Below are positions 1 through 58,113 of a DNA stretch of 60,605 bases, in pieces. Below the pieces are notes generated by a model. That model saw nothing but the letters and a program-made list of their open reading frames with translations, was not told the DNA's origin and did no database searches. The stretch lies in the NCBI GenBank assembly GCA_038884615.1, contig JAWABL010000006.1, forward strand, positions 1-60,605, given 5' to 3'. The translations under genes were made by a program, and so were the position numbers. The number at the start of each line of letters is the position of its first letter. The first letter of the stretch is position 1. The DNA comes from Candidatus Woesearchaeota archaeon (GTDB taxonomy: Archaea > Nanobdellota > Nanobdellia > Woesearchaeales > DSVV01).

Positions 1-329
1 TCCCTTATAAAAGAGATTACTTCAGTTATTTTCATAGGCTTCTGTTTTTTTGGGTTATAGCAAAAATCACAGTTCATATTGCAGTCAGAAGTTAGAGGGA
101 ACATAAAACTCTTATAGCTCTTTTTATTCTCTTTGTTTAGATTATATTTCGTTGTCATAAGCTTTTTGTAAAAGTCTGCGTTTTTTTCCAGCAATGAAAA
201 AAACACTCCATGAGAACTGCACCTCTTCTTAATATAAACTGCGTTGCTTTTCTCAACGACAACAGCATCAATCTCCTTAAAACATACAGGGCAGATGCTC
301 CGTGTTTCTTTTATTTTAGTGACCAGCAT
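1..329 (-). CDS. Radical SAM protein, Tes/MJ0619-like N-terminus (partial, runs off the left edge; not in the ORF track)
   Basis: Manual translation from ATG at 329: MLVTKIKETRSICPVCFKEIDAVVVEKSNAVYIKKRCSSHG...FPLTSDCNMNCDFC. It has CxxC..CxxH plus CxxxCxxC and is a paralog of 1825..3108. Confidence 0.85.
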   Translation of the reverse strand, partial: MLVTKIKETRSICPVCFKEIDAVVVEKSNAVYIKKRCSSHGVFFSLLEKNADFYKKLMTTKYNLNKENKKSYKSFMFPLTSDCNMNCDFCYNPKKQKPMKITEVISFIR

Positions 330-1825
330 TTTCTTAGATACTCTTCTTCATGTTTGCGACCATACACACTCTCAACTGCATTAAAAAATCGTTTTAATAA
401 GTAGGGGTTTTTTTGTAGCAGAGGCATTTTTGAAATAACAAGAAGAAACCATGAGGGTATTATCGGATAGTTGGCCATTTTAAACAAGCAACTCCAGTAT
501 ATCATGCAATCAGCATCTGCATGCAGCATATTAAGATGCCAGTTATAAAAAACCTTTTTCTTTGAGCTTTCAACATCGTCTTGTGAAATCAACCCGGCCT
601 TTAAAGCTGTTTCAGTAAGCTTGTATCTAGGGAAGTAAATAAGGGAGTAGAATATAAAATGTCGCGGCCTAATCTTCAAAATAAAGCTAAATCCTTCTCT
701 CCGGTCATTTTCATCTTCAAATGGATTATCAACAATGTAGTCGTATATAGGAAGAACATTCAATTGTTTTAGTATCTCTGATGCACGGAGAATCTCCTCA
801 TTTGTGGTGTTTCTATTAAAGAAGGCCTTCCTTATTTTTTCAGAGCCGCTCTCTATTCCCATCTTGGCAGCTTTAAGCCCTGCACTCTTCAACATCACCA
901 TAATCTCTCTATCAATAAGCTTTGGATGAGTCATGACAATAAAAGGTAGTCCGATCCTCTTTTGATAAGATTTACTAAAATGACTTATCCACTTCTTGTC
1001 GTATGTAAAAACATCATCGTGAAAAAAAACAGTATTAAGTCTGTGGCTTCTTTTTGCCAGAAGAAGCTCGTAAATTACATTATCCACTGAGCGCCGTCTT
1101 ACTTTTGTTCTTACTATATTATTTATGCAGTACGCGCATCTGAAGAAGCATCCTCTGTTACTCATAATACTATAACAGCCCATGACAAGCTTGTATGGAA
1201 GAGAGGACTTAACATCTTTATAAGAGCGAAAAATTAAATCATTTTGTATATAGAACTTATCAGCATCAGAGTAGTCAGGATAAGGAAGAGAATTAAGATC
1301 TGGCACTTGGTTTATAACATGGGCAATTTTTTTTCTTTTTCTAGAAAGTCTATATATAATACCGGGAACAACAACGCAAAATTCTCTGTTTGCTCTCTCC
1401 TGTTTTTGTGCCAGATTGTGCAGATGCTTACAGAGCTCGGCTATTGCGTATTCCCCTTCGCCTATGCATATCATATCAGCATAAGCCAACGATTCTTCAG
1501 GACAGATTGTAGGGTGTACACCACCCCAAAGTATTTTAGCATTTGAAGTGTATCTAATCTTCTCAGACAAGGTTTTTGCTATTTCAAAAAATGAAGATCT
1601 TACGCTCAAAGCTACTAGCTCAGGCTGAGTATCATTTATAATCTTTATAGCCAGTTCATACTCATTTTTAGACGGCAGTGATATATTGTTAATCATATGC
1701 TCCTTAAAGAAGAGTGAGGTAACCTCATTTCCATTCTTTTTCAGAACTGAATGCAGGAGTCTTATTGCCATACTGTCAACATCATATAGACTGATTAGAA
1801 TAACTTTTACCATTGGTATCGCCAT
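311..1825 (-). CDS. Cobalamin-binding radical SAM protein
   Basis: WGGVHPT...GEGE B12-domain signature; SNRGCFFRCAYC; FHDDVF; GIESGS. Confidence 0.92.
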   Translation of the reverse strand: MAIPMVKVILISLYDVDSMAIRLLHSVLKKNGNEVTSLFFKEHMINNISLPSKNEYELAIKIINDTQPELVALSVRSSFFEIAKTLSEKIRYTSNAKILWGGVHPTICPEESLAYADMICIGEGEYAIAELCKHLHNLAQKQERANREFCVVVPGIIYRLSRKRKKIAHVINQVPDLNSLPYPDYSDADKFYIQNDLIFRSYKDVKSSLPYKLVMGCYSIMSNRGCFFRCAYCINNIVRTKVRRRSVDNVIYELLLAKRSHRLNTVFFHDDVFTYDKKWISHFSKSYQKRIGLPFIVMTHPKLIDREIMVMLKSAGLKAAKMGIESGSEKIRKAFFNRNTTNEEILRASEILKQLNVLPIYDYIVDNPFEDENDRREGFSFILKIRPRHFIFYSLIYFPRYKLTETALKAGLISQDDVESSKKKVFYNWHLNMLHADADCMIYWSCLFKMANYPIIPSWFLLVISKMPLLQKNPYLLKRFFNAVESVYGRKHEEEYLRKCWSLK

Positions 1826-3108
1826 TAGTATGCTCTAGATTTATTATTAGATTTGTAATTTAATTCTCGTTTGTTTTTTTGTTTTTTTACAACTGCTTCA
1901 TTTCTAATCAACGAATAGCAAAATGGATGAATTGTTCCATCCTCACATAGGCCTGCACTCCTGCAGTATCCTAGCTCATCAAGGTCTATATCATACCGCA
2001 TAGGCCATCTGCGCAGTTTTATCTTATAAAGATTTACCTTGCAATCTCCATGAATTCTTTTCTTTATATAATAAAAAAAAGACCTTGCTCCGCCATTTGC
2101 AATAAGCCTGCGGCTAAATGCAATCTTTTCCTTTACTCCATTATCATAAGAAGGCTCGTTGAACTCTACAAAAAGAAGCTGTTTTGCGTCTTTCGTAGTT
2201 AGGTAATAAAGATAAAGGTCTAAGCAATCAAAAGGACGATGGGCTTCTTTTGTTTGTGCAAACTGGTGCAAAAGAAGCTTGGAGTCAAGACTAAGCATGT
2301 TACATATTAGATTGAACATCTCAGACAGAAAAAAAGGCTTTTTGCTTGTGTACCGACCTATTTTAACAGCCGCCCGTATCCGCCATTCTACAATAAAATC
2401 AGGGTTGTCTAGGTAATACGACCAGATTTTATTCAGCTCGTCTTCATTATCGCCTCGGACAAGCAGAGTTGAAAAAACAACAAAAATTCTATTTTTTTTC
2501 AAGTTTGAAAGCGCCCTTAGTAAAATGTCCGAAGAAATACTCTTCCTTTTATATGTTGTGTTATCCCTATAGTCACCACCTCTTAGAGAATTTATAGTAA
2601 AATTTACTGTTGTAAGCCCTGCGCGTTTTAATTTTTCTACTACCTGCTCGTCTGCCAATGCAACGCCATTTGTCAACAAAGAATGGGTTTTTCCCTGATT
2701 TTTTATGAACTTTAGTATCTCCGGTAGGTCTTTTCTTAGTGTCGGCTCGCCACCTGAAAGCCTTATGCACTCACCTTTAAACGATTTGATGATGTCAAAT
2801 ATCTCTTTAGTGTTCATGTCTTTCGTATGAAAAGGAAAAAAACAGGTGTTACAAGACATATTGCATTTATGAGTAAGAGGAATTGTTAGGCTTATCGGAC
2901 TTGAGAGCGCAGGCCATGTATATTTTCCCATGTATTTATGGAATTTTACTTTATAAAAATATGCGTCAGTTTCAATTATAGACTTTTGAGTTCCATGCTT
3001 GTCGCATCTTTTTTTCATATAGACTATGCCTTCCTGCTCATATATTTTCGCAGGCACTACTTCATAGCATTCATTGCATATACTCTCGGTTTTTTTCAGC
3101 AGATTCAT
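1825..3108 (-). CDS. Radical SAM protein, Tes/MJ0619 (HMPTM)-like family
   Basis: N-terminal TESICNEC...KRCDKHG; CNMSCNTC; SGGEPT; C-terminal DIDLDELGYC...DGTIHPFCY. Confidence 0.85.
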   Translation of the reverse strand: MNLLKKTESICNECYEVVPAKIYEQEGIVYMKKRCDKHGTQKSIIETDAYFYKVKFHKYMGKYTWPALSSPISLTIPLTHKCNMSCNTCFFPFHTKDMNTKEIFDIIKSFKGECIRLSGGEPTLRKDLPEILKFIKNQGKTHSLLTNGVALADEQVVEKLKRAGLTTVNFTINSLRGGDYRDNTTYKRKSISSDILLRALSNLKKNRIFVVFSTLLVRGDNEDELNKIWSYYLDNPDFIVEWRIRAAVKIGRYTSKKPFFLSEMFNLICNMLSLDSKLLLHQFAQTKEAHRPFDCLDLYLYYLTTKDAKQLLFVEFNEPSYDNGVKEKIAFSRRLIANGGARSFFYYIKKRIHGDCKVNLYKIKLRRWPMRYDIDLDELGYCRSAGLCEDGTIHPFCYSLIRNEAVVKKQKNKRELNYKSNNKSRAY

Positions 3109-3114
3109 TCTAAT

Positions 3115-4734
3115 TCATCTGGTTTTTGTTTTGCCTATAAGTGATGCTGTTCTGCTAAATGGCAAATAAATTCTGCTATATATAAATATGTAAGACCGTA
3201 TATACGCTGCCCTTAGCGGATAGGGAAAAGGTACAAAAATAAGGTTATAAGGGCAAACCCTAAGCCACAAATAAAAAATCTTCTGCGCAAAATTAGAGCC
3301 CCTTGAAGACTTAATTAATGGAAATAAAAAGCGCGGGACCTTCCCGTATCTTATGCTATTAAATTGTCCTTGAAGAAGCGACAAAACAAGGCAGTGCCCT
3401 GAACCGGTTTTAATCTTGAAATGTCCGATAGTGTCACCGTACTCAAGAGTAAAACTTTTTAGAGCGCATTCTTTAGTGTGCATATCTTCAAGTGCATTTT
3501 TGTAATAAGTACTACCTGGAAAATAGGTTAGGTTAAACACACGCAAAAAGAATGGTTTTGGCAAGGCCTCAATCAGCTTAAGAGTCTCCCCTATATCTTT
3601 GAGTGTTTCATTAGGATTTGTTCCAATGAGCTGGTATTCTGGAGGATACATTCTGGTTTTGAACTTGTTAAGAGTTCTTGCAGCCCTTAAAATTTCTCTA
3701 TTGGCCATCTTTCTGTTATAAAGAGAGCTACTTACCCTTCTACTGCCTGTTTGTATGCCAACCTCCACTCTGCAAAGTCCTGCAGAAACCAGCATAGAAA
3801 GTTTAGTTTTTTCTATGCTTTTCGGTCCAGCGTAGCACATGAAAGGAAGCGCCACATGTTTTTTATATTCGGCGATAAAAGCAGAAATTTCGTCCCTGCT
3901 CCTTACAAAAAAATCGTCGTCGGTAAACCAGACGAATGCAAGCGAAGGAATATTTTTTTTAAGCTGCCTTAACTGAGATATCACATGACCAAGGCTTCTT
4001 TTTCTTAATAAAGACGCATGGCTAGTTGTACCGCTTAATCTTATATGGTATATTTTTTTAAGGTCGTAGTTGCAGCAATATGTGCACGAAGAATGACAGC
4101 CGCGTATACAGTGTATTGTAACAAACGAACCTCTGACTTTATTGAAAAATTCATTTGAAAGATTGTGAAGCCCATATGTAAAATGCTTTTCTTGCATTGG
4201 CACAAAAGAGCCGTTTTCAAGAACCAAGTGTCCAGCAAGGCTATAGTCTTCAAATGGCAGAGAATCAAGATTCATTACTAAGGGCCTAATTTTACATACC
4301 CTGCTATGCCTTCCTCTGATGTTTTTTATTTTTCGGCCACCTGTTTTTCTAGTGTGGAGCGCATAAGCCAACTCGGCAAACGCAAACTCTCCCTCTCCCA
4401 CGCAGACATAGTCTGCATACATCAAGCACTCATCTGGGTTAAGGGTTGCATGAATTCCACCCCATATAATTACACCATCAAATTTCTTTTCGCGAATAGA
4501 TTTTATTATCTGTATAACCTTTTGACTGCTCAGCGCCATTGAAGAAAAACCAATCATGTCCATTCTGCAGATAAGAGCATATAATTTTTTAAGAACACTT
4601 CTTGGATATTTGTTGTTAAAATAGGGCATAAAAATAAGTGTTACACTATGGCCGTACTTTTTAAGCACCGAGGATAATAGCCTAAGGCCATTGCTAGAGA
4701 GGTCATATTCTGCTGAAATAAGCCCAATGTTGAT
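3115..4734 (-). CDS. Cobalamin-binding radical SAM protein (probably starts about 4734, upstream of the ORF-track GTG at 4668)
   Basis: WGGIHAT, GEGE, RGCHSSCTYC, GIQTGS. The upstream frame is open and reads INIGLISAEYDLSSNGLRLLSSVLKK, aligning with the N-terminus of 311..1825. Confidence 0.88.
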   Translation of the reverse strand: MNIGLISAEYDLSSNGLRLLSSVLKKYGHSVTLIFMPYFNNKYPRSVLKKLYALICRMDMIGFSSMALSSQKVIQIIKSIREKKFDGVIIWGGIHATLNPDECLMYADYVCVGEGEFAFAELAYALHTRKTGGRKIKNIRGRHSRVCKIRPLVMNLDSLPFEDYSLAGHLVLENGSFVPMQEKHFTYGLHNLSNEFFNKVRGSFVTIHCIRGCHSSCTYCCNYDLKKIYHIRLSGTTSHASLLRKRSLGHVISQLRQLKKNIPSLAFVWFTDDDFFVRSRDEISAFIAEYKKHVALPFMCYAGPKSIEKTKLSMLVSAGLCRVEVGIQTGSRRVSSSLYNRKMANREILRAARTLNKFKTRMYPPEYQLIGTNPNETLKDIGETLKLIEALPKPFFLRVFNLTYFPGSTYYKNALEDMHTKECALKSFTLEYGDTIGHFKIKTGSGHCLVLSLLQGQFNSIRYGKVPRFLFPLIKSSRGSNFAQKIFYLWLRVCPYNLIFVPFPYPLRAAYIRSYIFIYSRIYLPFSRTASLIGKTKTR

Positions 4735-4752
4735 TGTTACCCCCCCAAAACT

Positions 4753-6399
4753 TCAATTTTTCTTTCTTTTGCTAATTTCCGAATAATATCTGTATACCCT
4801 ATCGACATAACCCTTTAAATCGGAAAGCTCCCTTGACTGAAATGACTGCCACTTACGCCCACCCTCTAAAAAAGCTTTACGGCTTTTCCAATGCATATAG
4901 ACATCATAAAAGAAAGCATAGCAGAAGTTCTGCCTCCACTCAATAGCTGAAAGAACCGAAGGAACAAGATAGACACGTTTTCTATAAAAAGAGTGAGGGT
5001 GCCACATCAGCTTTAGGACAAAAGCAGCTTTGCTGGGTTTGTAGGTATATATGCAATAGAGGCTCAGCCTTATCTTATCAAAAAATGGCTTAAACCCACG
5101 CTGCTCTTTAGGGTTGAATCTGCTTCGTCCATATTTCTTTGTAAATTTAACTACCCTCCTGAAAAAACCATCATAGCTGTACAGATTTTGATAAAGGCGC
5201 ATTATATTAAGAATCATATCAAGTGTGTTAAGGCTTTTTGAGTCCCATTGCGCAAAGGCGTACAAAGAGTTTTTATAGTATTGCGTATTGATTCTCCCTT
5301 CCTTTTTTAGTCTTTTGTAGTGAGGCGTTCCGTAATACGCTGCGGCAACAAATATGTCTGTAAATAGTATGCTATGTGTTGTGAGAAATTCTTCGACCCT
5401 TCCAAATGCATTAAGGTAATCATGATCAAAACCCATTATAAATAAAGGTTTGGCCATTATTCCATGCTTATGAAAATTGACTATTACCTTTCCATACTTA
5501 TTTATTTCATTTAGTCTGTGCTTGCCGATTAATTCAAGATTTTTCCTGTTTAGCGTTTCAAATCCTATAGAAACTTCCTGGCATCCGCTCTTTGACATGA
5601 TATCAAGAAGCTCGTCGTCCTCTGCAATATAGGCATTGCCAAAACAAACATAATTTATTTTTTCAGGGATTAGAGCGGCAAGAAGTTTTTTTGCATAATC
5701 CACATCAAAGAAAAGATTGTAGTCAACTATCCAAAAAAAATTGTACCATTTTTTAAGATATTTTATCTGGGACACAAAATCCTCAACATGCATTTTTCTG
5801 ATCTTATTTCCAAAATGCATGCTACTTACACAGAACTCGCAACCATGCGGACATCCACGCGTTGCAATTACTGTCGCAAGCATATACCTGTCATTTTTTA
5901 AAAGGTCCCATCTGGGCATTGGAAGGTTTTCTAGTCTAATCCTTTCTCCTCTGTAAACTTTTTTAAGTTTCCCTGAACAAAAGTCTTGAAAAAGCCTTGG
6001 CCATACCCCTTCCGCCTCGCCTATGACTATTGAATCTGCATGCTTCTTTGACTCATTCGGCATTAATGTAACATGCAAACCACCCAGCACAACAGGCACG
6101 CCAAACGACCTAAACATATCAGCTATCTTAAACCCACGAACTGCTGTGATTGAAGTTATTGTAATACCAACAAGGTCAGGTTTTAATGAGAGGTCTATAT
6201 CCTCTATGTTTTCGTCTATTATATACACCTTATTTTCTTTTGGCGTAAGAGACGCGATGATTGCAAGAGAGAGTGGCGGAACGATAAATTTTGATTTTCC
6301 TATAAGCGGGTTATAAAAATACCTATCAAGAAGGTGCGTATTTCTTTCAACCTTAGGCCTAACCAACAATATCTTCATTCTGCTTTTTGAATTAACCAT
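4753..6399 (-). CDS. Cobalamin-binding radical SAM protein
   Basis: PPLSLAIIASLTP, GGLHVT, GEAE, TRGCPHGCEFC, GFET, GFDHD. Confidence 0.92.
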   Translation of the reverse strand: MVNSKSRMKILLVRPKVERNTHLLDRYFYNPLIGKSKFIVPPLSLAIIASLTPKENKVYIIDENIEDIDLSLKPDLVGITITSITAVRGFKIADMFRSFGVPVVLGGLHVTLMPNESKKHADSIVIGEAEGVWPRLFQDFCSGKLKKVYRGERIRLENLPMPRWDLLKNDRYMLATVIATRGCPHGCEFCVSSMHFGNKIRKMHVEDFVSQIKYLKKWYNFFWIVDYNLFFDVDYAKKLLAALIPEKINYVCFGNAYIAEDDELLDIMSKSGCQEVSIGFETLNRKNLELIGKHRLNEINKYGKVIVNFHKHGIMAKPLFIMGFDHDYLNAFGRVEEFLTTHSILFTDIFVAAAYYGTPHYKRLKKEGRINTQYYKNSLYAFAQWDSKSLNTLDMILNIMRLYQNLYSYDGFFRRVVKFTKKYGRSRFNPKEQRGFKPFFDKIRLSLYCIYTYKPSKAAFVLKLMWHPHSFYRKRVYLVPSVLSAIEWRQNFCYAFFYDVYMHWKSRKAFLEGGRKWQSFQSRELSDLKGYVDRVYRYYSEISKRKKN

Positions 6400-6400
6400 C

Positions 6401-9000: not shown

Positions 9001-9047
9001 AAAATTTCATAAATATTTAAATAATTTTTCGAAATTTCATCGTCCTT

Positions 9048-12628: not shown

Positions 12629-12635
12629 TTCAAGA

Positions 12636-13745: not shown

Positions 13746-13796
13746 TAAAGCATAAAAAACATTATGTTTTTATAAATATATTTTTTTCTAATTGTT

Positions 13797-17439: not shown

Positions 17440-17515
17440 TTTAACGGAATTAGAAACAAGAAAGTAGTATAAATTAGTTTTGAAGAAATTTTTATAAACC
17501 TAAGCTTCATCAATC

Positions 17516-18817: not shown

Positions 18818-18830
18818 TTCTTTTTGAGCA

Positions 18831-19682: not shown

Positions 19683-19724
19683 AAAAGTAGAATTGCAGTA
19701 GAATCACAGCATGAGCACATCAAA

Positions 19725-20795: not shown

Positions 20796-21010
20796 GAGAG
20801 GTTATGTTTTTATTTATGCTTTTGAACCTTTTTGCAAGCTCTTCAACAATTGCATATTCTTATGTTGACCCTGGAACTGGTGGGATGGTTATAAAATCTA
20901 TATGGATGTATATTTTAGGTCTCTTTGGATTTGTCATCGGCCTATTTTTCATGCCAATAAAAAAGGGAGTCGTCTATTTATGGAAAAAAATAAAAGGAAA
21001 AGGAGATTGA
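20792..21010 (+). CDS. Small membrane protein with YxDPGTG motif
   Basis: Signal-like N-terminus, AYSYVDPGTGG, one hydrophobic helix, basic tail; overlaps both neighbours as in an operon. Confidence 0.7.
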   Translation: MREVMFLFMLLNLFASSSTIAYSYVDPGTGGMVIKSIWMYILGLFGFVIGLFFMPIKKGVVYLWKKIKGKGD

Positions 21011-22884
21011 CCGGCATTATGCTTATAGCTACTGCGACGCTCCTTCTGGCGCTGCCTATGATAACTCTACTATGGAAGGAAGCAAAAAAAAATGAGGATG
21101 CGCATTATAAAAGAGTTCTTGTTATAGGGATTGACGGGATGGACTACAGAATAGCAAAGACCATGATAGAACAAGGCAAACTTCCAAACTTTAAGAGGCT
21201 TTCCGAGCAGGGGGGATTCAGGATGCTTACTCCTGAAAATCCTGCACAAAGCCCTGTTGTGTGGACAAGCATTGCTACCGGAAAAAACCCTGGCAAGCAC
21301 GGTGTTTTTGACTATGTAATTCGTGAGCCCGAAACATACATACTTAAAGTCGGACTCTTCAGTACGGATTATGGCCTGTTTGGAACAACCTACAAAAGTG
21401 CTGTAAAAAGCGATGCTTTCTGGAAACAGTGCGACTGCAGAGCAACAATAATAAGATGGCCACTCACTTTTCCACCTGAAAAAATAAAAGGAAGTATGCT
21501 ATCTGGGCTAGGCGTTCCCGATATAAAAGGATATCTATCTGGCTATACTTTTTATACCGAAAAAAATACGAAAAAACCAGAGAAAACAACAAATAAGATA
21601 GTCATTGTCAAGCCTGAAGACGGAAAAATTTCAACCCATATAGCTGGGCCGGTTTTTAATGGGCTCACAGAAACAAGCCAATTGTCCGCGCCAATGAGTA
21701 TCACGATTAATGAAAAAAGCATTGTTCTTGATATTGATGGCAAAGAGTACAGCATTAAAGAAAAGAGATGGAGCGACTGGATTGAAGTTAGCTTTGGGAA
21801 GGCGGATAGTAAAATAAAAGGAATGTTTAAGGTGTATCTTATAAGAACAACGCCTTTTGAAATGTATGTCACAGCTGTGCAAATTAACCCAAAAAGACCT
21901 TTACTCCCTATATCCTATCCAAATGAATACTCAACATACCTTGCAGAGAAGGTTGGACTTTTTTATACCCTCGGTCAGTCTGAGGAAACTGACGGGTTTG
22001 ACGACGGATTTTTGCCAGAAGAAGCACTGGCTGAACAGATTAAGGAGATTGAAAATGAGAGAGAGAAAATATTTTGGAGTGAGTTTGAAAAGTTTGAAGA
22101 AGGTATCTTTGCAATTGTATTTGACAGCTCAGACAGACTACAGCATGTCTTAAGCCAAAAATCTGTTGAGGAGTACTATATGGAAAAAGATATTTTCTTG
22201 GGGAAAGTTCTTGATAGCATAAAGTCCGACACGCTTATACTTGTCTTTTCGGATCATGGTATAAGCAACTATAACAAATCTGTAAATCTTAACGCATGGC
22301 TTGTCAAAAATGGCTATATGAGCCTACGAGAGAGCTCACAAGATGAGTCTAGCATTGCTATGTATTCAAAAAATAAGAAAGCACCATACTACAATGTGAA
22401 CTGGAATGAAACAATCGCCTATTCTGTAGGGTTTACAGGCATATATATAAACCAAAAGGGAAGAGAAAAAAACGGAATTGTTGAACCTTCAGGTAAGGAC
22501 GACATTCTTAATGAAATTTCCGCAAAACTAACTAGCCTAAAAGATCCTGTAACAGGTGAGCAAGTGGTCGCAAAAGTCTATAAAAGTAAAGATATATACT
22601 TCGGCGACCAAGTCTTATATTCACCTGACCTTGTAGTAGGGTTTATGCCAGGCTATAGGACAAGCACAGAAAGCGCAATAGGGCTAACAAGCGAAGAAGT
22701 GATATCTAACAACAGAAGAGAATGGAGAAGGGACCATATAATTGACCCCTCATTTGTACCTGGCGTTCTCTTCTCAAATGCAAGGGTAGAAGATGCTACA
22801 GCACGGGATATCGCGCCTACAATACTTTATGCTCTTGGAAAGAAAATACCTAAGGATATTGATGGGAGAGTGTTGATAAAGTGA
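20980..22884 (+). CDS. Alkaline phosphatase superfamily (type I phosphodiesterase/nucleotide pyrophosphatase-like) membrane-anchored protein
   Basis: IGIDG, SPVVWTSIATGKNPGKHGVFD, SDHG, DIAPT. The start is probably ATG 20980, after GGGAG (ORF track starts at 20902). Confidence 0.88.
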   Translation: MEKNKRKRRLTGIMLIATATLLLALPMITLLWKEAKKNEDAHYKRVLVIGIDGMDYRIAKTMIEQGKLPNFKRLSEQGGFRMLTPENPAQSPVVWTSIATGKNPGKHGVFDYVIREPETYILKVGLFSTDYGLFGTTYKSAVKSDAFWKQCDCRATIIRWPLTFPPEKIKGSMLSGLGVPDIKGYLSGYTFYTEKNTKKPEKTTNKIVIVKPEDGKISTHIAGPVFNGLTETSQLSAPMSITINEKSIVLDIDGKEYSIKEKRWSDWIEVSFGKADSKIKGMFKVYLIRTTPFEMYVTAVQINPKRPLLPISYPNEYSTYLAEKVGLFYTLGQSEETDGFDDGFLPEEALAEQIKEIENEREKIFWSEFEKFEEGIFAIVFDSSDRLQHVLSQKSVEEYYMEKDIFLGKVLDSIKSDTLILVFSDHGISNYNKSVNLNAWLVKNGYMSLRESSQDESSIAMYSKNKKAPYYNVNWNETIAYSVGFTGIYINQKGREKNGIVEPSGKDDILNEISAKLTSLKDPVTGEQVVAKVYKSKDIYFGDQVLYSPDLVVGFMPGYRTSTESAIGLTSEEVISNNRREWRRDHIIDPSFVPGVLFSNARVEDATARDIAPTILYALGKKIPKDIDGRVLIK

Positions 22885-24161
22885 GGTCGATTTTCGCAGC
22901 TGCTATAATAGGTTTTTTGCTTCTTTCTGCATGCAACAAAGAAGAGGAGTTTTTGCCAGATAGCCTCTCATGCAAAGGGTGCAACATCGTTGTTATAACG
23001 ATGGACTCGCTTAGGGCTGATAGGCTTGGCTGCTACGGTTATCCACTTAGCACAAGCCCAAATATAGACAAGTTTGCAGAAAAGTCAATAATATTTAGTG
23101 ATGCTACGAGCATATGCGGCTCGACATTCTGCGCAATCCCAGCGCTGATGACATCTAAGTATCCTTATACAGACAATCTTATGGAAGGATTAAGGCTTAA
23201 GCAAGAGGCGGTCACAATATCTGAAATATTAAGAAAAGAGGGATATGATACAAGAGGTGTGGTAACTGTATCGCTTGTTAATTCAGAGAGCGGCAACATG
23301 CAGGGTTTTGATTACTATGATGACATCTTTATTGAGTATGAGCCTGCCAAAATAACAAGAAGGAGGGCTGAAAAAAGTTTAGAAAATGCAGTTGAGCCTT
23401 TTTTTATTTGGGTCCATTTCTGGCAGCCGCACGAGCCTTATACTCCGTCGTCTTATTCAAGAACAATTATTGAAGCGCAGTCGCGGTTATTCGGAAATAT
23501 TGACGAAAATAAAAACAAAGAGCCGTCTACATTCAGAATATATGGGCTAGACACAAGCAAAGAAATTGTAGAGAAGCAAAATCGCAGAAAAGAGAATCTA
23601 AAAAACCTTAGCATTATGTATGACGCAAGCATCTATGATGTTGACAACGAAGTAGGAAAATTCCTAAAAAAACTTGAGCCTTTCAAAAACAGAACAATTA
23701 TTATAATAACCTCAGACCATGGCGAGCTGCTTGGAGAGTATGAAGCAGTAAGCCACAACAACCTCTATTATGAAGGGCTTCATGTGCCATTGATAATTCA
23801 CCATCCTAACAACGCTCATCTAGTTATCAACAAGCCTATTATGTCTGTGGACATAGTTCCCACCATTCTTGACATGCTTGAAATTAAAATAGACTATTCT
23901 TTTAGAGGAGAAAACCTTTTTGAAACAAATAGAGAGTTTCAGTACGCAGAATATTCATATGGATATGCAGTGAAAAAAGGGGATGTTCAGCTAATTAAAT
24001 TTCCTGAACCCATAATAATAAATATCTCCGACCCGACAAAAAGAGTTCAGAATCAAAAAGAGCTGATTGAGGAGCTAGGGTCTCTTGCACCAAAAAGAAA
24101 TTTTACCTACAATGGCGTTGATGAGTTTGAACTTTTAAGGTCAATTGGATATATAGGATAG
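22881..24161 (+). CDS. Sulfatase-like hydrolase/transferase, possible lipoprotein
   Basis: LLLSAC lipobox-like; MDSLRAD.LG.YG, PH.PY, TSDHGE, HVPLII, DIVPT, LRSIGY. Confidence 0.85.
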   Translation: MRSIFAAAIIGFLLLSACNKEEEFLPDSLSCKGCNIVVITMDSLRADRLGCYGYPLSTSPNIDKFAEKSIIFSDATSICGSTFCAIPALMTSKYPYTDNLMEGLRLKQEAVTISEILRKEGYDTRGVVTVSLVNSESGNMQGFDYYDDIFIEYEPAKITRRRAEKSLENAVEPFFIWVHFWQPHEPYTPSSYSRTIIEAQSRLFGNIDENKNKEPSTFRIYGLDTSKEIVEKQNRRKENLKNLSIMYDASIYDVDNEVGKFLKKLEPFKNRTIIIITSDHGELLGEYEAVSHNNLYYEGLHVPLIIHHPNNAHLVINKPIMSVDIVPTILDMLEIKIDYSFRGENLFETNREFQYAEYSYGYAVKKGDVQLIKFPEPIIINISDPTKRVQNQKELIEELGSLAPKRNFTYNGVDEFELLRSIGYIG

Positions 24162-24320
24162 GCTGAAGATATATAATTGGCGGAATAGATAGGGATATAA
24201 AGTATAGAAGGGATGTAAGGAGGGGAGGGTATACATATTATACATATATAATACTGAACATCCTTTATATAGATTTACTGCAAGCCAATAAGGAAGTTAT
24301 ATATACTAATTATATATTAA

Positions 24321-24430
24321 TTAATATTAATTAATATTAATTAATATTAATTAATATTAATTATATACTAATCATTATATACTAATCATTATATACTAAT
24401 CATTATATACTAATCATTATATACTAATCT
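24321..24430. repeat. AT-rich tandem repeats: (TTAATATTAA)x4 then (TTATATACTAATCA)x~5
   Basis: Read directly. The 10-mer is palindromic and there are no spacers. Confidence 0.9.
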
Positions 24431-24522
24431 ATTTTATATATCACTTCCTTTTGTTGTACAGAAAGTATTTACAGGTTACTAGCTGTATTGACTATAATGG
24501 CTAAAACTAAGGAAAAAAGGCG

Positions 24523-25239
24523 ATGACCAGAAAAATGAGCATAATAGATAATGCAATTGGAAAAGAGAAGAAAGGTAAAAAAGTTTACATGAAGATTTTT
24601 ATATCTGCGGTGGTATTTTTACTTGTTTTTTTCGGAGGAGCTATCGGCGTGTTCCTTTACAAGGAACACAAAAAGGAGCTTGCAGAGGAGAAGTTTATAG
24701 AGGGACTTGAGTATTTCAGACACTACCGTTACTTTGCTGCGCTGATGAGTCTTGAAAAATCAATCGAAATGTATCCAACAGACAAAGCCTACTTGCTAAG
24801 AGGCATCTGCTGGCTAAAAGTTGGCGACCAAAAATTGGCGCAACAAGACTTTAAAATGGCGTCAAGAACTGAAAACAAAACTATTCTTGCATCTAGCATG
24901 GCTTATCAAGGTTTTATTTATATGTTTTATGATAACGATCTTGAACTTGCACTGCAGAAAGTGAATCAAGCAGAGCAGATACTACCAACATATGAAGTGC
25001 TCTTAATAACCGGCGCAGTTTACCTAAGAGCAAATCAAACTGAAGTGGCGATGGATTATGCATCAAGAGCTCTTGAAATGAACCCACTAAGACCAGATGC
25101 ATACGCCCTGAAAGGCCGTGCTTACCAAAAGATGAATGACGAAGAAAATGCGTCATTTTATTTTCAAAAAGCACTTGATATAAACCCTGAAATGCACAAG
25201 GACCCTTTTTATAGGTATCTACAAGATTATAAAAAATGA
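24523..25239 (+). CDS. Membrane-anchored TPR protein
   Basis: One TM helix followed by TPR-type repeats (AY..RG, A..ALE.NP, F.KALDINP). Confidence 0.85.
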   Translation: MTRKMSIIDNAIGKEKKGKKVYMKIFISAVVFLLVFFGGAIGVFLYKEHKKELAEEKFIEGLEYFRHYRYFAALMSLEKSIEMYPTDKAYLLRGICWLKVGDQKLAQQDFKMASRTENKTILASSMAYQGFIYMFYDNDLELALQKVNQAEQILPTYEVLLITGAVYLRANQTEVAMDYASRALEMNPLRPDAYALKGRAYQKMNDEENASFYFQKALDINPEMHKDPFYRYLQDYKK

Positions 25240-26444
25240 GATTATATTATACGCCTTATTCTCAAACAGGAATGACTGGAGCAGGGCTTTATTATGAGCA
25301 GATATCAGAACTACTAAAAAAAACAGCTCAACCCTTTAACCCCTTGCAGACTCCTGAAGGGGATATTGTAAGTACAATCGGACCGTTTGCACAAATATTC
25401 TTTTATAACCGGCTGATTAAAAAACAAAACTTCAGAATAGTTCGTGATGTTCTTACAGCATTTTATGCAGGTTATATCCTCCAGGAAGGATTATGCCTAT
25501 ATGACACAAGAGAGCACGATAGGATTATTTTTCCAAGCGAGTACTGCAGACAGGTTTTTTTAAAACTTTTTCCTCATAGATACAATGAAATATTTGTCTG
25601 CCATCCTATTATTTCAAGCTTGCCTACCAAAATAGAAAGAAGAAAAAGAAGCAAAGAGCTAACAATAGGGTATCTTGGAAGATTGTGCATGGACAAGAAT
25701 TTCGACCAGTGCCTTGAAGTTTTTGTAGAAGTATATAAAAGGCTGAACGGCAAAGCGAGATTCATTGTCCACGGAAACAGTTCCCCTGAATTTACACCTC
25801 AAAAAGTAAGAAAGTTCCTTAAAGAAAAGGGAGTCGCTCCTCTAAAATATTTTCATGAAACAAGTACACTCCCATATCATAAAGCCCTAAGTATGCTGAA
25901 TAAAATTGATGTCCTACTTTTTCTTTCAACAAGCACGCATGAGTCTCTTGGAAGAGTTATTCTTGAAGCAAATCATTTTGGGGTTCCTGTTGTTGCCGCA
26001 ATGCACGGCGCTGCGCCAGAAGTTCTTCCAAAATCAAACCTAGTCGCGGTTAGATATTATAAAAAAGAATATCCGCTTGATAATGTATTCTCATTAGGAA
26101 GAGTTGATGTTGATACTGTTGTTGAGAAGTGTCTTGATTATGAAAATCTTAAGATTGGCTCTAATAAGGCATATGAAGGACACGAAGACAAGTTTAGAAG
26201 AATAGTTAATGGAGAATCTATAAAAGAGAAGCATGCTAAAATTTCAGAGCCAGTACGTAGGTTTCTTGCAAGAACAAGCGTGACTTTGAATTATGATTAT
26301 AGATTTAATTTTGAATCTGCATCAAGAGTAACCATAGATTATCTAAAAAAATTTTTCAAAAAAAATAGATTTGGAGATATACCAAAGATTTCAGCAGGGC
26401 TTACAAAACATCTTAATTATATACCTATACTAAGCATAAAATAA
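25236..26444 (+). CDS. Glycosyltransferase GT4, paralog of 7552..9000
   Basis: GRLCMDKN, STHESLGRVILEA..FGVPVV; shares the FRIxRDV...GYxxQE motif. Confidence 0.88.
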   Translation: MRLYYTPYSQTGMTGAGLYYEQISELLKKTAQPFNPLQTPEGDIVSTIGPFAQIFFYNRLIKKQNFRIVRDVLTAFYAGYILQEGLCLYDTREHDRIIFPSEYCRQVFLKLFPHRYNEIFVCHPIISSLPTKIERRKRSKELTIGYLGRLCMDKNFDQCLEVFVEVYKRLNGKARFIVHGNSSPEFTPQKVRKFLKEKGVAPLKYFHETSTLPYHKALSMLNKIDVLLFLSTSTHESLGRVILEANHFGVPVVAAMHGAAPEVLPKSNLVAVRYYKKEYPLDNVFSLGRVDVDTVVEKCLDYENLKIGSNKAYEGHEDKFRRIVNGESIKEKHAKISEPVRRFLARTSVTLNYDYRFNFESASRVTIDYLKKFFKKNRFGDIPKISAGLTKHLNYIPILSIK

Positions 26445-50461: not shown

Positions 50462-50472
50462 TTCTTTTCAAA

Positions 50473-58112: not shown

Positions 58113-58113
58113 C

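What the first reader, a model, noticed from the sequence alone, without database searches (positions are those of the whole stretch)
1..26444. Radical-SAM mega-cluster (at least 11 rSAM loci, 6 cobalamin-binding) in a probable DPANN archaeon
Seen: eleven CxxxCxxC loci in about 21 kb, in tightly coupled operons with three compact divergent junctions (9000/9048, 13745/13797, 17439/17516). They are interleaved with GT4 and GT2 enzymes, a PaaK-like ligase, a PLP decarboxylase, DUF362, two exported AlkP-family enzymes and a TPR protein. Known: B12-rSAMs methylate or cyclise unactivated carbons in RiPPs, lipids (GrsA/B, calditol synthase) and sugars, and DPANN archaea generally have minimal biosynthesis. 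Inference: an undescribed pathway that builds a heavily modified glyco-peptide, glycolipid or surface polymer, probably using scavenged cobalamin. The substrate is not identifiable here and the cluster continues off the left edge.
Basis: partly seen in the sequence, partly recalled or inferred. Interest (0 to 1): 0.85.

Follow-up and report, generated by a model that had tools for sequence, protein, structure and literature searches.

The report
Radical-SAM island in Woesearchaeal glycan locus
A small symbiont-type (DPANN, Woesearchaeota) archaeon packs about fifteen radical-SAM enzyme genes into one stretch that also holds sugar-transferase and flippase genes, most likely to build an unusually modified cell-surface glycan or glycolipid whose chemistry is still unknown.

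Summary
Window 1-26444 has 11 CxxxCxxC radical-SAM (rSAM) loci. Six have a B12-binding domain, and one of those (13797-15166) is a pseudogene. The organism is an archaeon of the Woesearchaeota: the rRNA operon is on the same contig, and the nearest named AlaRS relatives are all Woesearchaeota/Nanoarchaeota.

The cluster does continue to the left. The gene cut at base 1 resumes at the end of contig C2 with about 3 residues missing. That adds a B12-rSAM, a GT-C glycosyltransferase, a Wzx-type flippase, a CysD-like gene and an Hxs-like rSAM module. The island then holds 15 rSAM genes, giving 16 of the genome's 41 PF04055 matches in 30.8 kb.

It is a composite, not one proven pathway. The core is a 10-gene operon: GT4, SPASM rSAM, four B12-rSAMs interleaved with two short Tes-like rSAMs, GT-C, flippase. 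The Tes-like/B12 cassette recurs in Omnitrophota, Elusimicrobiota and a few other Woesearchaeales, often with a PaaK-like ligase. No close orthologue was found in 40 relatives.

B12-rSAM arrays inside glycan loci are a trait of this lineage. No marker of cobalamin synthesis or BtuF-type uptake was found.

My best reading, at moderate confidence, is rSAM tailoring of a polyprenyl-linked envelope glycoconjugate. Lipid remodelling, protein maturation and a small-molecule product remain open.

The parts
3..329 (-). N-terminal 109 aa (Zn-ribbon plus CxxxCxxC) of short Tes-like rSAM 'TesL_A'. The rest of the gene is at the right end of contig C2 (C2:76309-77190, minus strand).
   Evidence: PF23545 59.9 bits. 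The C2 frame continues with GGGEPT. The two parts align to TesL_B residues 4-108 and 112-403.
311..1825 (-). B12-binding rSAM 'B12_1' (504 aa), TIGR04072-like subfamily
   Evidence: PF02310 54.9 and PF04055 63.7 bits. Best NCBIfam TIGR04072 104.7 against cut-off 360. 31% homologue next to a Tes-like gene in Omnitrophota locus L008.
1825..3108 (-). Short Tes-like rSAM 'TesL_B' (427 aa): Zn-ribbon, rSAM core and a C-terminal Cys motif
   Evidence: PF23545 62.3 and PF04055 78.3 bits. Tes model NF045702 114 against cut-off 450. Family profile against GDGT-MAS 7tol E 7e-52 over positions 5-251. Atlas structure TM 0.79 to a 'putative Tes' cluster.
3115..4668 (-). B12-binding rSAM 'B12_2' (517 aa from the first canonical start). 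The conserved domain start lies upstream, up to about base 4750.
   Evidence: Pfam. The PF02310 match extends to 4728. The upstream frame has no ATG/GTG/TTG, and there is a C7/G7 run at 4740. 37% identical to the B12-rSAM on C2.
4753..6399 (-). B12-binding rSAM 'B12_3' (548 aa) with a weak DUF4070 match
   Evidence: Pfam. 32-34% homologues beside Tes-like genes in L008 and L088.
6401..7555 (-). rSAM with SPASM domain 'SPASM_1' (384 aa)
   Evidence: PF04055 65.4 and PF13186 30.6 bits. Best NCBIfam WgkB 89.9 against 650.
7552..9000 (-). GT4-type glycosyltransferase, first gene of the 10-gene minus-strand operon
   Evidence: PF00534 58.1 bits. 4-nt overlap with the next gene.
9001..9047 (.). Divergent AT-rich promoter region (47 bp)
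   Evidence: Sequence read.
9048..10811 (+). B12-binding rSAM 'B12_4' (587 aa), BchE/PhpK-like subfamily
   Evidence: PF02310 67.8 and PF04055 85.3 bits. BchE 127.5 against 481. 36% identical to B12_5.
10808..12628 (+). B12-binding rSAM 'B12_5' (606 aa)
   Evidence: PF02310 74.5 and PF04055 78.4 bits. BchE 142.3 against 481. Best PDB match AprD4 E 3.6e-14.
12636..13745 (-). DUF362 protein (369 aa), Cys-rich C-terminus
   Evidence: PF04015 139.6 bits. No PDB relative. A DUF362 homologue sits beside Tes-like genes in L092.
13797..15166 (+). Decayed B12-binding rSAM (pseudogene), read across three frames
   Evidence: Pfam pieces. Frameshifts at A8 runs near 14123 and 14545, and a TGA at 14158-14160. 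68 of 76 long homopolymer runs in 1-26444 lie inside intact ORFs, so this is not a systematic assembly error.
15152..16093 (-). rSAM with SPASM domain 'SPASM_2' (313 aa)
   Evidence: PF04055 59 and PF13186 55.2 bits. Best NCBIfam TIGR04317 84.5 against 380.
16090..17439 (-). PLP-dependent decarboxylase of the Orn/DAP/Arg fold (449 aa)
   Evidence: PF02784 104.6 bits. lysA 160.3 against 297.9. PDB relatives include DAP decarboxylases, N-citrylornithine decarboxylase and BtrK. A homologue lies next to PaaK-like and Tes-like genes in L009.
17516..18817 (+). PaaK-like adenylate-forming ligase (433 aa)
   Evidence: DVU_1553 family 157.3 against 300, and PaaK models. PDB 4r1l E 4e-33. Homologues lie beside Tes-like genes in 6 of 15 distinct loci.
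18831..19682 (+). GT2 glycosyltransferase (283 aa)
   Evidence: PF00535 72 bits. 46% homologue in relative G024.
19725..20795 (+). rSAM 'rSAM_x' (356 aa), related to SPASM_1 (27% identity)
   Evidence: PF04055 50.1 bits. NirJ2 61.1 against 500. Paralogy. 33% homologue in G089.
20902..22884 (+). Membrane-anchored AlkP-superfamily phosphodiesterase-like protein (660 aa)
   Evidence: PF01663 103.5 bits. One N-terminal hydrophobic segment at residues 35-53.
22881..24161 (+). Exported sulfatase-fold protein (426 aa) without the C/S-x-P-x-R formylglycine motif
   Evidence: PF00884 144.3 bits. Signal with LLSAC, and no C/SxPxR.
24523..25239 (+). Membrane-anchored TPR protein
   Evidence: TPR families. 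Hydrophobic segment at residues 18-36.
25236..26444 (+). Second GT4-type glycosyltransferase (402 aa)
   Evidence: PF00534 51.9 bits.

Best explanation
This is a real, composite cell-envelope biosynthesis island of a Woesearchaeal (DPANN) archaeon. It spans roughly C2:64.7 kb to window base 26444, about 39 kb.

Its core is one 10-gene minus-strand operon: GT4, a SPASM rSAM, four B12-domain rSAMs interleaved with two short Tes-like rSAMs, a GT-C (PMT/ArnT-like) glycosyltransferase, and a Wzx/MOP-type flippase.

The most likely working model has four steps:
1. A sugar or short glycan is assembled on a polyprenyl or dolichyl phosphate carrier at the cytoplasmic face by the GT4 and GT2 enzymes.
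2. The rSAM enzymes modify it at unactivated carbons. The B12-type enzymes would C-methylate or rearrange it. The Tes-like and SPASM enzymes would form C-C bonds or carry out other radical chemistry.
3. The PaaK-like ligase and the LysA-like decarboxylase add an amide-linked, then decarboxylated, amino-acid side group.
4. The product is flipped outward and transferred by the GT-C enzyme. Exported AlkP-fold enzymes then act on phospho-ester groups outside the cell.

What is shown: gene content, operon structure, archaeal origin, the recurrence of the Tes-like/B12/PaaK cassette elsewhere, and the lineage-wide link between B12-rSAM arrays and glycan genes. What is inferred: the substrate, every chemical step, and cobalamin use.
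For: 1. The rSAM genes lie between GT4 and GT-C plus flippase on one strand, with 1-19 nt overlaps or gaps under 90 bp. The split gene joins C2 to the window with about 3 residues missing.
2. The genome has what a lipid-linked glycan pathway needs: two cis-prenyltransferase matches, one polyprenyl synthase and one STT3/AglB. The archaeol ether-forming enzymes PcrB/GGGPS and UbiA/DGGGPS were not found.
3. B12-domain proteins occur in 24 of 24 same-family genomes, and in 36 of the 40 relatives searched. In the three relatives whose arrays I annotated (G038, G020, G037), the arrays are interleaved with GT2, UDP-GlcNAc 2-epimerase, a PTPS_related polytopic membrane protein and class-I methyltransferases. 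A Nanoarchaeota locus (L010) combines Tes-like, three B12-rSAMs, a Wzx-like gene and a carbamoyltransferase.
4. The cassette co-occurs conservedly. Of 15 distinct loci carrying a Tes-like homologue, 10 also carry B12-type rSAMs, 6 a PaaK-like ligase, and at least 5 a second Tes-like copy.
5. The decarboxylase's solved relatives include enzymes that decarboxylate an already ligated amino acid (N-citrylornithine decarboxylase, BtrK).
6. I found no room for a precursor-peptide ORF in the window's intergenic gaps.
Against: - In the bacterial loci the Tes-like/B12/PaaK cassette stands without glycosyltransferases. L008 has an SDR and an ABC-2 exporter. L094 has a GDSL hydrolase and a class IV aminotransferase. 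L092 has a BpsA-like domain. The cassette's substrate therefore need not be a glycan.
- The closest solved relative of the Tes-like proteins acts on lipid tails, and three of the B12-rSAMs score best against a 'lipid biosynthesis' model.
- No initiating phosphoglycosyl transferase was identified in the island.
- No expression data exist.
- One B12-rSAM is dead, and another lacks a canonical start for its conserved N-terminus, so part of the island may be decaying.
- Adjacency across divergent promoters does not prove a single pathway.
Confidence: 0.45

Rival explanations
1. Lipid remodelling. The Tes-like, SPASM and B12-rSAM genes form a toolkit analogous to Tes/Gms/Gmm/Grs. It would couple, bridge, cyclise or methylate hydrocarbon tails of membrane lipids taken from a host, or of the cell's own polyprenols. 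The GT genes would then add head-group sugars, making a glycolipid.
For: - The family profile matches GDGT-MAS at E 7e-52, and the Atlas model aligns over residues 2-411 with a 'putative Tes' cluster at TM 0.79.
- B12_1, B12_2 and the C2 B12-rSAM score best against TIGR04072 'lipid biosynthesis B12-binding/radical SAM'.
- The same three enzyme classes make and modify GDGT/GMGT lipids and cluster together in Thermococcus guaymasensis (PMC11214058, passages read).
- Tes and Mss homologues in DPANN have been noted and proposed to modify host lipids (PMC8941075, PMC11868695, PMC13159169, passages read).
- GGGPS and DGGGPS were not found here, while CarS is present.
Against: - All lipid-model scores are far below cut-off: 114 against 450 for Tes, and 80-105 against 360 for TIGR04072.
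- The proteins are about 100 aa shorter than Tes, and the middle/C-terminal part aligns only weakly.
- No canonical Tes was found in the genome. Only the two short copies match profile A1.
- The operon's flippase and GT-C point to a carrier-linked glycan rather than core lipids.
- Bacterial cassette contexts include amino-acid enzymes.
Confidence: 0.22
2. Protein or peptide maturation (RiPP-like). The SPASM, Hxs-like and B12-rSAM enzymes would post-translationally modify exported proteins, for example pilin-like proteins or an effector as in the bacterial HXS anti-phage system. The GTs would glycosylate that protein.
For: - The C2 part holds an HxsB-like SPASM protein and three HxsC/HxsC4-like rSAMs, next to an archaeal A24 prepilin-peptidase-like gene and four pilin-like genes. 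This module is conserved in relatives G024, G003 and G005, with up to 66% identity.
- Bacterial HxsB/HxsC mature a secreted effector protein (PMC13128918, abstract and section 10 read).
- B12-rSAMs and SPASM rSAMs are common RiPP tailoring enzymes. RiPP models ApyD, TIGR03975 and WgkB are among the sub-threshold hits.
Against: - No precursor-like small ORF lies in the window's gaps.
- No His-Xaa-Ser repeats occur in neighbouring proteins.
- HxsC scores 197.7 against 267.9 and HxsB-like 115.5 against 370. The HxsB-like protein has no CxxxCxxC.
- No RRE/PqqD-type domain was reported by Pfam for the rSAM genes.
- This reading fits the C2 module better than the window's part.
Confidence: 0.15
3. 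A secreted or cell-bound small molecule. The product would derive from an amino acid, polyamine or acyl unit activated by the PaaK-like ligase, decarboxylated, and multiply C-methylated or cross-linked by the rSAMs. It would be a natural-product cluster that merely sits beside unrelated glycan genes.
For: The cassette's bacterial contexts lack GTs. They carry two PaaK-like ligases, an SDR and an ABC-2 exporter (L008); a decarboxylase (L009); a class IV aminotransferase and a GDSL hydrolase (L094); and a BpsA-like domain (L092).
Against: - In this genome the Tes-like/B12 genes are inside the GT4...GT-C-flippase operon. The ligase and decarboxylase are in separate, divergently transcribed units.
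- No exporter other than the flippase is present in the island.
Confidence: 0.13
4. A decaying accessory island of laterally acquired rSAM genes with no coherent present-day function.
For: - One pseudogene carries three lesions.
- B12_2 lacks a canonical start for its conserved N-terminus.
- No close orthologue of the Tes-like gene was found in 40 relatives.
- The nearest Atlas clusters are mostly bacterial.
Against: - Thirteen of the 15 rSAM genes show no lesion. The other two are the pseudogene and B12_2, whose first canonical start lies inside its conserved domain.
- All 15 rSAM loci keep CxxxCxxC; the 16th, SPASM-only gene has none.
- Tight operon coupling is preserved.
- Composition matches the genome.
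Confidence: 0.05

Closest known systems
Tetraether lipid synthase Tes / GDGT-MAS (PDB 7tol; NCBIfam NF045702; Pfam PF23545 + PF04055)
   Same: The N-terminal CxxC...CxxH zinc-ribbon, the rSAM core with CxxxCxxC and GGEPT, and a C-terminal W-P...C...PFC motif are shared. The profile of 10 family members matches 7tol at E 7e-52. The predicted fold aligns over residues 2-411.
   Different: The proteins are about 100 aa shorter (368-434 against about 526 aa). The score of 114 bits is far below the 450-bit cut-off. The middle and C-terminal region aligns only weakly. They occur as tandem copies with B12-rSAMs and PaaK-like ligases, mostly in bacteria. The host genome lacks detectable GGGPS and DGGGPS.
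Cobalamin-dependent (class B) radical SAM enzymes. Examples are the lipid methylase Gmm and ring synthases GrsA/B, P- and C-methyltransferases of the PhpK and TokK type, BchE, and the TIGR04072 'lipid biosynthesis' family.
   Same: They share the N-terminal PF02310 domain followed by a PF04055 core with CxxxCxxC, in six window genes and one C2 gene.
   Different: No characterised family cut-off is reached; the best is 142 against 481. The nearest solved structure is AprD4 at E 3.6e-14. Seven copies from three divergent subfamilies (22-37% identity) sit in one island. No cobalamin synthesis or BtuF-type uptake marker was found.
Archaeal and bacterial lipid-linked glycan loci (Wzx-type flippase, GT-C, GT2 and GT4 genes; the archaeal Agl N-glycosylation type). 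The comparison to Agl loci is recalled, not from a call.
   Same: The island holds a Polysacc_synt flippase, a PMT/ArnT-like GT-C, GT2 and two GT4. AglB and cis-prenyltransferases are encoded elsewhere in the genome.
   Different: Seven rSAM genes are embedded inside the glycan operon. I know of no described glycan locus with such a load, and my searches found none.
HXS (His-Xaa-Ser) rSAM system, an anti-phage defence of Pseudomonadota (HxsD-HxsB-HxsC-HxsA)
   Same: Paired HxsB-like and HxsC-like proteins are the best NCBIfam matches for four C2 genes.
   Different: Scores are below cut-off. HxsC-like genes are multiplied (3 here, 8 or more in a relative). The HxsB-like protein lacks CxxxCxxC. 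No HxS-repeat effector is present. The module is linked to an A24 peptidase-like gene and pilin-like genes, in an archaeon.
Ligase plus fold-III PLP decarboxylase pairs that act on a ligated amino acid (N-citrylornithine decarboxylase in rhizoferrin synthesis; BtrK in butirosin synthesis)
   Same: The decarboxylase is homologous to both (E 2e-23 and 5e-13). It is adjacent to a PaaK-like ligase here and in Elusimicrobiota locus L009.
   Different: The ligase here is PaaK-like, not an NIS synthetase or ATP-grasp enzyme. No carrier protein was found in the island. The substrates are unknown.

Membership tests
Tetraether lipid synthase Tes (NF045702) | Score at or above the curated equivalog cut-off (450 bits) | tested here: not met
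   114.3 bits for 1825-3108 and 57.4 bits for the fragment 3-329.
Tetraether lipid synthase Tes (NF045702) | N-terminal zinc-ribbon/rubredoxin-like domain plus rSAM core | tested here: met
   PF23545 62.3 and PF04055 78.3 bits. Invariant C11, C14, C35, H38, C82, C86 and C89 in the 10-sequence alignment.
Tetraether lipid synthase Tes (NF045702) | Full-length similarity, including the C-terminal half of GDGT-MAS | tested here: inconclusive
   The sequence profile aligns to positions 5-251, plus a weak 8.5-bit C-terminal stretch. The Atlas model aligns 390 residues at TM 0.79 by query but 0.65 by the longer target.
Tetraether lipid synthase Tes (NF045702) | Host makes archaeol-type diether substrates | tested here: not met
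   PcrB/GGGPS and UbiA families were not found in the 92.4%-complete genome. CarS was found. An incomplete genome does not prove absence.
Class B (cobalamin-dependent) radical SAM enzymes | N-terminal B12-binding domain followed by an rSAM core with CxxxCxxC | tested here: met
   Five intact window genes and one C2 gene are over both Pfam cut-offs. The pseudogene piece scores 30.8 against 32.1.
Class B (cobalamin-dependent) radical SAM enzymes | Actual cobalamin binding and methyl transfer or rearrangement | not testable with these tools
   The nearest solved relative is AprD4. Cobalamin use in this island rests on the Pfam domain alone.
HXS system (HxsA-D) | HxsB and HxsC over their equivalog cut-offs | tested here: not met
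   HxsC-like 197.7 against 267.9. HxsB-like 115.5 against 370. HxsC4-like 170 and 142 against 500.
HXS system (HxsA-D) | Effector or peptide with His-Xaa-Ser repeats nearby | tested here: not met
   The H.S count is 0-1 in all 11 ORFs of C2:61205-69949.
Anaerobic sulfatase-maturing enzyme plus sulfatase pair | The sulfatase carries a C/S-x-P-x-R motif and the rSAM matches the maturase family | tested here: not met
   No C/SxPxR in 22881-24161. No sulfatase-maturase model appears among the 25 NCBIfam hits of 19725-20795 at E<=1e-5.
Diaminopimelate decarboxylase LysA (TIGR01048) | Score at or above the curated cut-off (297.9) | tested here: not met
   160.3 bits.
Phenylacetate-CoA ligase PaaK | Score at or above the curated cut-offs (646-700) | tested here: not met
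   121.8 and 133.7 bits. The best model is the DVU_1553 family at 157.3 against 300.
DPANN / Woesearchaeota genome | Archaeal rRNA, a small genome, and housekeeping genes nearest to Woesearchaeota | tested here: met
   Archaeal rRNA on the contig. Genome of 1.33 Mb at 92.4% completeness. All named AlaRS relatives among the 120 listed hits are Woesearchaeota, Nanoarchaeota or Nanoarchaeia.

The most novel reading that the evidence does not exclude
Woesearchaeal DPANN archaea carry hypervariable 'radical-SAM islands'. In these, a horizontally mobile cassette of short Tes-like C-C-bond-forming enzymes and B12-type rSAMs is wired into a lipid-carrier glycan export operon. The product would be a new class of envelope glycolipid or glycan that is multiply C-alkylated or cross-linked, possibly built on lipids or cobalamin taken from the host. 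This diversity would shape host attachment or virus resistance.
Probability: 0.2. Interest if true: 0.85.

Novelty: new variant of a known kind. Interest (0 to 1): 0.6.

Why it matters
DPANN archaea are seen as metabolically minimal. Yet this 1.33-Mb genome puts 16 of its 41 radical-SAM domain matches and 7 of its 10 B12-domain matches into one envelope-related island. Relatives carry comparable arrays.

If the products are rSAM-tailored surface glycans or glycolipids, they would be a new chemistry at the symbiont-host or virus interface. They would also imply a hidden demand for scavenged cobalamin and iron-sulfur capacity.

The short Tes-like family, a close structural cousin of the enzyme that makes membrane-spanning archaeal lipids, has no known substrate. 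Its fixed partnership with B12-rSAMs and PaaK-like ligases across Omnitrophota, Elusimicrobiota and Woesearchaeota gives a defined, testable enzyme set.

This also bears on the use of 'Tes homologue' hits as markers of tetraether producers in metagenomes. Short homologues like these should not be counted as Tes.

Tried and rejected
- **Chimeric or bacterial contamination.** Rejected. The composition is uniform, archaeal rRNA and a Woesearchaeal AlaRS are on the same contig, and the left end joins C2 in frame.
- **Recoding of TGA as an explanation for the broken B12-rSAM.** Rejected. The other ORFs are open under table 11, and the locus also has two frameshifts.
- **Systematic homopolymer assembly error.** Unlikely. 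68 of 76 long runs sit inside intact ORFs. The one public run that holds the sequence does not cover the lesions (depth 0.07 in that bin), so this check failed.
- **Sulfatase plus maturase pair for 19725-24161.** Rejected. There is no formylglycine motif and no maturase model hit.
- **Canonical Tes, canonical HXS, LysA and PaaK memberships.** Not met.
- **RiPP precursor search in the window's gaps.** Nothing found. The 361-bp gap at 24162-24522 holds only AT-rich tandem repeats.
- **Orthologous synteny in close relatives.** Not found for the window's part. The Tes-like gene's best hit in 40 relatives is 34% identity over a partial core. B12-rSAMs in the fetched islands are 25-31% identical. 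Only the C2 Hxs-like module and the GT2 have closer relatives (62-66% and 46%).
- **Wider search of the order.** Of 301 genomes of the order (G000 included), 26 match profile A1 at E<=1e-25. Only 4 of the 300 others (G065, G089, G116, G038) have matches that start within the first 8 profile positions. The rest match only the rSAM core. The unpublished genomes G135 and G230 are among those core-only rows. Nothing else in this report rests on them.
- **Expression.** No RNA holder is listed for window 1-10000. One DNA run labelled as a hot-springs metagenome holds 0.22 of the sampled words, with 22 of 25 laid pieces at 99% or more. It may be the source sample and is not independent support.
- **Literature.** Searches with 'DPANN' + 'radical SAM' (+ 'B12-binding'), with 'radical SAM' + 'glycosyltransferase' + 'Woesearchaeota', and with cobalamin-dependent rSAM + polysaccharide terms found no description of such islands. 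PMC8204110 has no 'radical SAM' in its main text.
- **Not run.** I made no structure prediction, complex prediction or representative-library search. The Atlas already held a model of the Tes-like protein.

Full report
**What is in the window.** Between bases 3 and 20795 there are eleven loci with CxxxCxxC and a Radical_SAM match.

Six of them begin with a B12-binding domain. I label them B12_1 (311-1825), B12_2 (3115-4668), B12_3 (4753-6399), B12_4 (9048-10811), B12_5 (10808-12628) and the locus at 13797-15166.

Two have an N-terminal Zn_ribbon_HMPTM domain and are Tes-like: 3-329, which is cut by the contig end, and 1825-3108. Two carry SPASM domains: 6401-7555 and 15152-16093. One is a plain rSAM distantly related to the first SPASM enzyme: 19725-20795.

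Interleaved with these are:
- two GT4 genes and one GT2 gene;
- a PaaK-like ligase;
- a LysA-like PLP decarboxylase;
- a DUF362 protein;
- a membrane-anchored phosphodiesterase-like protein and a sulfatase-fold protein with a lipobox-like signal;
- an anchored TPR protein.

The three divergent junctions are 47, 51 and 76 bp long and AT-rich. Within the transcription units, genes overlap by 1-19 nt.

None of the proteins reaches the curated cut-off of any NCBIfam model. None can therefore be filed under a characterised housekeeping rSAM family.

**Corrections to the observation.** The locus 13797-15166 is not an intact gene. It reads through three frames, with shifts at two A8 runs, and has a TGA where relatives have the first Gly of a GEGE-type motif. 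Because 68 of 76 long homopolymer runs in 1-26444 lie inside unbroken ORFs, I read it as a pseudogene. The only public run that holds this DNA does not cover the lesions.

B12_2 has a smaller problem. The first roughly 20 residues of its B12 domain lie upstream of the first ATG/GTG/TTG, in the same frame as the stop codon of B12_3. A TTG overlapping that stop would need a one-base shift in a 7-base G/C run.

The 'sulfatase' lacks the C/S-x-P-x-R motif. It is better called an AlkP-superfamily hydrolase or transferase.

**Organism.** The window is a whole contig (C6) of a 1.33-Mb, 44-contig genome rated 92.4% complete and 0.45% contaminated. Archaeal LSU and SSU rRNA genes lie at 55184-60108. 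The alanyl-tRNA synthetase at 51998-54541 has its nearest relatives at 64-72% identity. Every named protein among the 120 listed is labelled Woesearchaeota, Nanoarchaeota or Nanoarchaeia.

GC is even across the contig and the genome. 'Probable DPANN archaeon' is confirmed. A bacterial chimera is not supported.

**The cluster continues on contig C2.** The minus-strand gene cut at base 1 resumes in frame at the right end of C2. The window part ends about 19 residues after CxxxCxxC, and the C2 frame starts '...GGGEPT'. The two parts align to the paralogue TesL_B at residues 4-108 and 112-403, so only about three codons are missing.

Going leftward, C2 adds the following (Pfam, NCBIfam, Pfam):
- the rest of TesL_A;
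- a seventh B12-rSAM (C2:74636-76270);
- a 734-aa polytopic PMT/ArnT-like GT-C protein;
- a Polysacc_synt (MOP/Wzx-type) flippase;
- a divergent CysD-like gene, the only island gene over a curated cut-off (273 against 195);
- three HxsC/HxsC4-like rSAMs;
- a 116-aa anchored Cys-rich protein;
- an HxsB-like SPASM protein without CxxxCxxC;
- a 151-aa protein;
- an archaeal A24 prepilin-peptidase-like membrane protein;
- four pilin-like genes.

The extended island therefore has 15 rSAM genes plus one SPASM-only gene. It holds 16 of the genome's 41 PF04055 matches in 30.8 kb (binomial P 4e-16) and 7 of its 10 B12-domain matches.

**Architecture.** The centre is one minus-strand operon of ten genes. 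It runs from window 9000 to C2:71126 in this order: GT4, SPASM_1, B12_3, B12_2, TesL_B, B12_1, TesL_A, B12(C2), GT-C, flippase.

The paralogues are old. B12(C2) and B12_2 are 37% identical, and B12_1 is 26-30% identical to them. B12_4 and B12_5 are 36% identical. B12_3 stands apart. The two Tes-like proteins are about 30% identical.

The other units are:
- B12_4 and B12_5;
- DUF362;
- the pseudogene;
- SPASM_2 and the decarboxylase;
- the PaaK-like ligase, GT2, rSAM_x and the two AlkP-fold genes;
- after a 361-bp repeat-rich gap, the TPR protein and GT4_2.

**The Tes-like family.** A search of 5.8 billion proteins gave only nine non-self proteins covering at least 93% of TesL_B, at 32-40% identity. 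One is labelled Nanoarchaeota. Their alignment (A1) keeps a CxxC...CxxH ribbon, the rSAM triad, GGEPTLR and a C-terminal W-P...C...PFC motif.

The profile matches the solved tetraether synthase GDGT-MAS (7tol) at E 7e-52 over its first 251 positions, and only weakly at the C-terminus. The ESM Atlas model aligns over residues 2-411 with a 'putative Tes' cluster (TM 0.79 by query). The nearest feature clusters, of 60-269 members, are mostly bacterial: Omnitrophota, Elusimicrobiota, Spirochaetota and Bacillota.

This is a shorter sister family of Tes, not Tes. It scores 114 bits against a 450-bit cut-off. Only the two short copies in the genome match A1 at E<=1e-25, so no canonical Tes was found.

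**Conserved co-occurrence.** Full-length homologues in species-representative genomes lie in an Omnitrophota MAG (L008, 36%), an Elusimicrobiota MAG (L009, 32%) and a Pseudomonadota MAG (L078, 24%). A partial match lies in a Nanoarchaeota MAG (L010). Metagenome contigs add more.

I examined 15 distinct loci by tblastn with all island proteins (L089 and L090 are duplicates). Of these:
- 10 carry B12-type rSAMs;
- 6 carry a PaaK-like ligase;
- at least 5 carry a second Tes-like copy;
- one carries the decarboxylase;
- one carries a DUF362.

Many of these loci are only 2-10 kb long, so a missing gene means little. L008 repeats the local order B12_1-like, Tes-like, B12_3-like.

The bacterial versions lack glycosyltransferases. 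They carry instead:
- an SDR and an ABC-2 exporter (L008);
- a GDSL hydrolase and a class IV aminotransferase (L094);
- a BpsA-like domain (L092).

The Nanoarchaeota locus L010 adds a Wzx-like gene, a carbamoyltransferase and a methyltransferase.

**Relatives.** Forty relatives of the same family or order have no close orthologue of TesL_B. The best hit is 34% identity over a partial core. In a sample of 300 further genomes of the order, only four (G065, G089, G116, G038) have matches that include the zinc ribbon. G065 and G089 carry Tes-like plus B12 arrays of their own. G089:C103 has 14 rSAM-family tblastn hits in about 34 kb.

B12-domain proteins, by contrast, are found in 24 of 24 same-family genomes and in 36 of the 40 relatives (1-10 matches each). 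They often occur as arrays: six in 16 kb in G038, and four in 12 kb in G020. These are only 25-31% identical to the window's copies.

In those arrays the intervening genes are GT2, UDP-GlcNAc 2-epimerase, a PTPS_related polytopic membrane protein, class-I methyltransferases, a DUF362-like gene and an amine oxidase.

The Hxs-like module (A24-like peptidase, 151-aa protein, HxsB-like, several HxsC-like) is conserved in G024 (twice), G003 and G005, with one HxsC4-like orthologue at 62-66% identity.

The island is thus a mosaic of three kinds of element:
- a lineage-conserved module;
- a lineage-typical but fast-diverging B12-rSAM and glycan repertoire;
- a rare, probably horizontally mobile, Tes-like cassette.

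**Genome background.** In the own genome I found:
- STT3/AglB;
- two cis-prenyltransferase matches and one polyprenyl synthase;
- CarS;
- SufB/D.

I did not find:
- PcrB/GGGPS or UbiA-family prenyltransferases;
- CobS, a PduO-type adenosyltransferase or a BtuF-type binding protein.

At 92% completeness these are 'not found', not 'absent'. They fit an organism that can make carrier polyprenols and N-glycosylate proteins. Such an organism probably cannot build archaeol cores or corrinoids.

**Interpretation.** I weigh operon position most heavily. Seven rSAM genes are co-oriented and tightly packed between a GT4 and a GT-C plus flippase pair. The carrier-lipid machinery exists in the genome. The lineage as a whole places B12-rSAM arrays in glycan loci.

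Hence the leading model, at confidence about 0.45, is radical tailoring of a polyprenyl-phosphate-linked sugar or glycan before it is flipped and transferred. The ligase and decarboxylase would install an amide-linked, decarboxylated amino-acid substituent. This is by analogy with the decarboxylase's solved relatives that act on ligated amino acids.

The strongest rival, at about 0.22, is lipid remodelling. Its basis is the homology to Tes. It also rests on the parallel with the Tes/Gms/Gmm/Grs enzyme classes described in PMC11214058 (passages). Published notes of Tes and Mss homologues in DPANN add to it (PMC8941075, PMC11868695, PMC13159169; passages).

Protein maturation fits the C2 Hxs-like module better than the window. 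Bacterial HXS matures a secreted anti-phage effector (PMC13128918, abstract and section 10). A stand-alone small-molecule product is suggested by the bacterial contexts of the cassette. No chemical step is demonstrated for any of these readings.

**Novelty.** rSAM-rich biosynthetic clusters, class B rSAM enzymes and Tes homologues in DPANN are all known. What I did not find in print, within the searches named under Tried and rejected, is threefold:
- an island of this density in a DPANN genome;
- the short Tes-like/B12-rSAM/PaaK cassette as a recurrent unit;
- the embedding of such enzymes in a flippase and GT-C operon.

I therefore rate it a new variant of a known kind, with interest 0.6. The finding is real, larger than reported, recurrent in the lineage and experimentally addressable. 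Its product and role remain unknown, and part of the island is decaying.

Noticed in passing
G000 contig C2:61205-69949 (locus L001 4013-12757), left of the window: A module of an archaeal A24 prepilin-peptidase-like protein (Arc_PepC 36 bits), a 151-aa protein, an HxsB-like SPASM protein without CxxxCxxC, a 116-aa anchored Cys-rich protein and three HxsC-like rSAMs lies beside four pilin-like genes. The module recurs in relatives G024 (twice), G003 (8 or more HxsC-like copies) and G005. Bacterial HXS is an anti-phage system, but no HxS repeats are present here.
   Followed up: partly
window 4669-4752: The conserved start of the B12 domain of B12_2 lies upstream of the first canonical start codon. 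It is in the same frame as the stop of B12_3, next to a 7-base G/C run. This could be a non-canonical start, a one-base indel, or a truncated gene.
   Followed up: partly
window 24162-24522: A 361-bp AT-rich intergenic region holds two short tandem repeat families (units of about 10 and 14 bases, four copies each). It separates the AlkP-fold genes from the TPR and GT4 pair.
   Followed up: no
window 58445-60108: The SSU rRNA match spans 1664 bases against a 1478-position archaeal model. This implies about 190 extra bases (insertion or intron). A 95-aa ORF (59524-59811) lies inside it.
   Followed up: no
window 44020-45027 and 49424-51849: Bacterial-type genes in an archaeal contig: a QueA-like protein (PF02547, 366 bits), a D-Ala-D-Ala ligase-like ATP-grasp protein, an LPG_synthase_C-like protein and a GNAT acetyltransferase.
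   Followed up: no
window 34612-40374: A 1920-aa protein with fn3, bacterial Ig-like and purple-acid-phosphatase N-terminal domains, probably a large surface protein. The 658-aa (40504-42480) and 551-aa (27243-28898) neighbours have no Pfam match.
   Followed up: no
G089:C103:54000-88000 (loci L193, L194): Another genome of the same order (GC 0.52) has 14 rSAM-family tblastn hits in about 34 kb: 2 Tes-like, 5 B12-type, 6 HxsC-like and 1 rSAM_x-like. There is also a phosphodiesterase-like gene. This is a second 'mega-island' made from the same enzyme families.
   Followed up: partly
G000 contig C2:70157-70957: A CysD-like sulfate adenylyltransferase small subunit (273 bits, over its cut-off) stands alone between the Hxs-like rSAMs and the flippase. 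No CysN partner was seen in the stretch examined.
   Followed up: no
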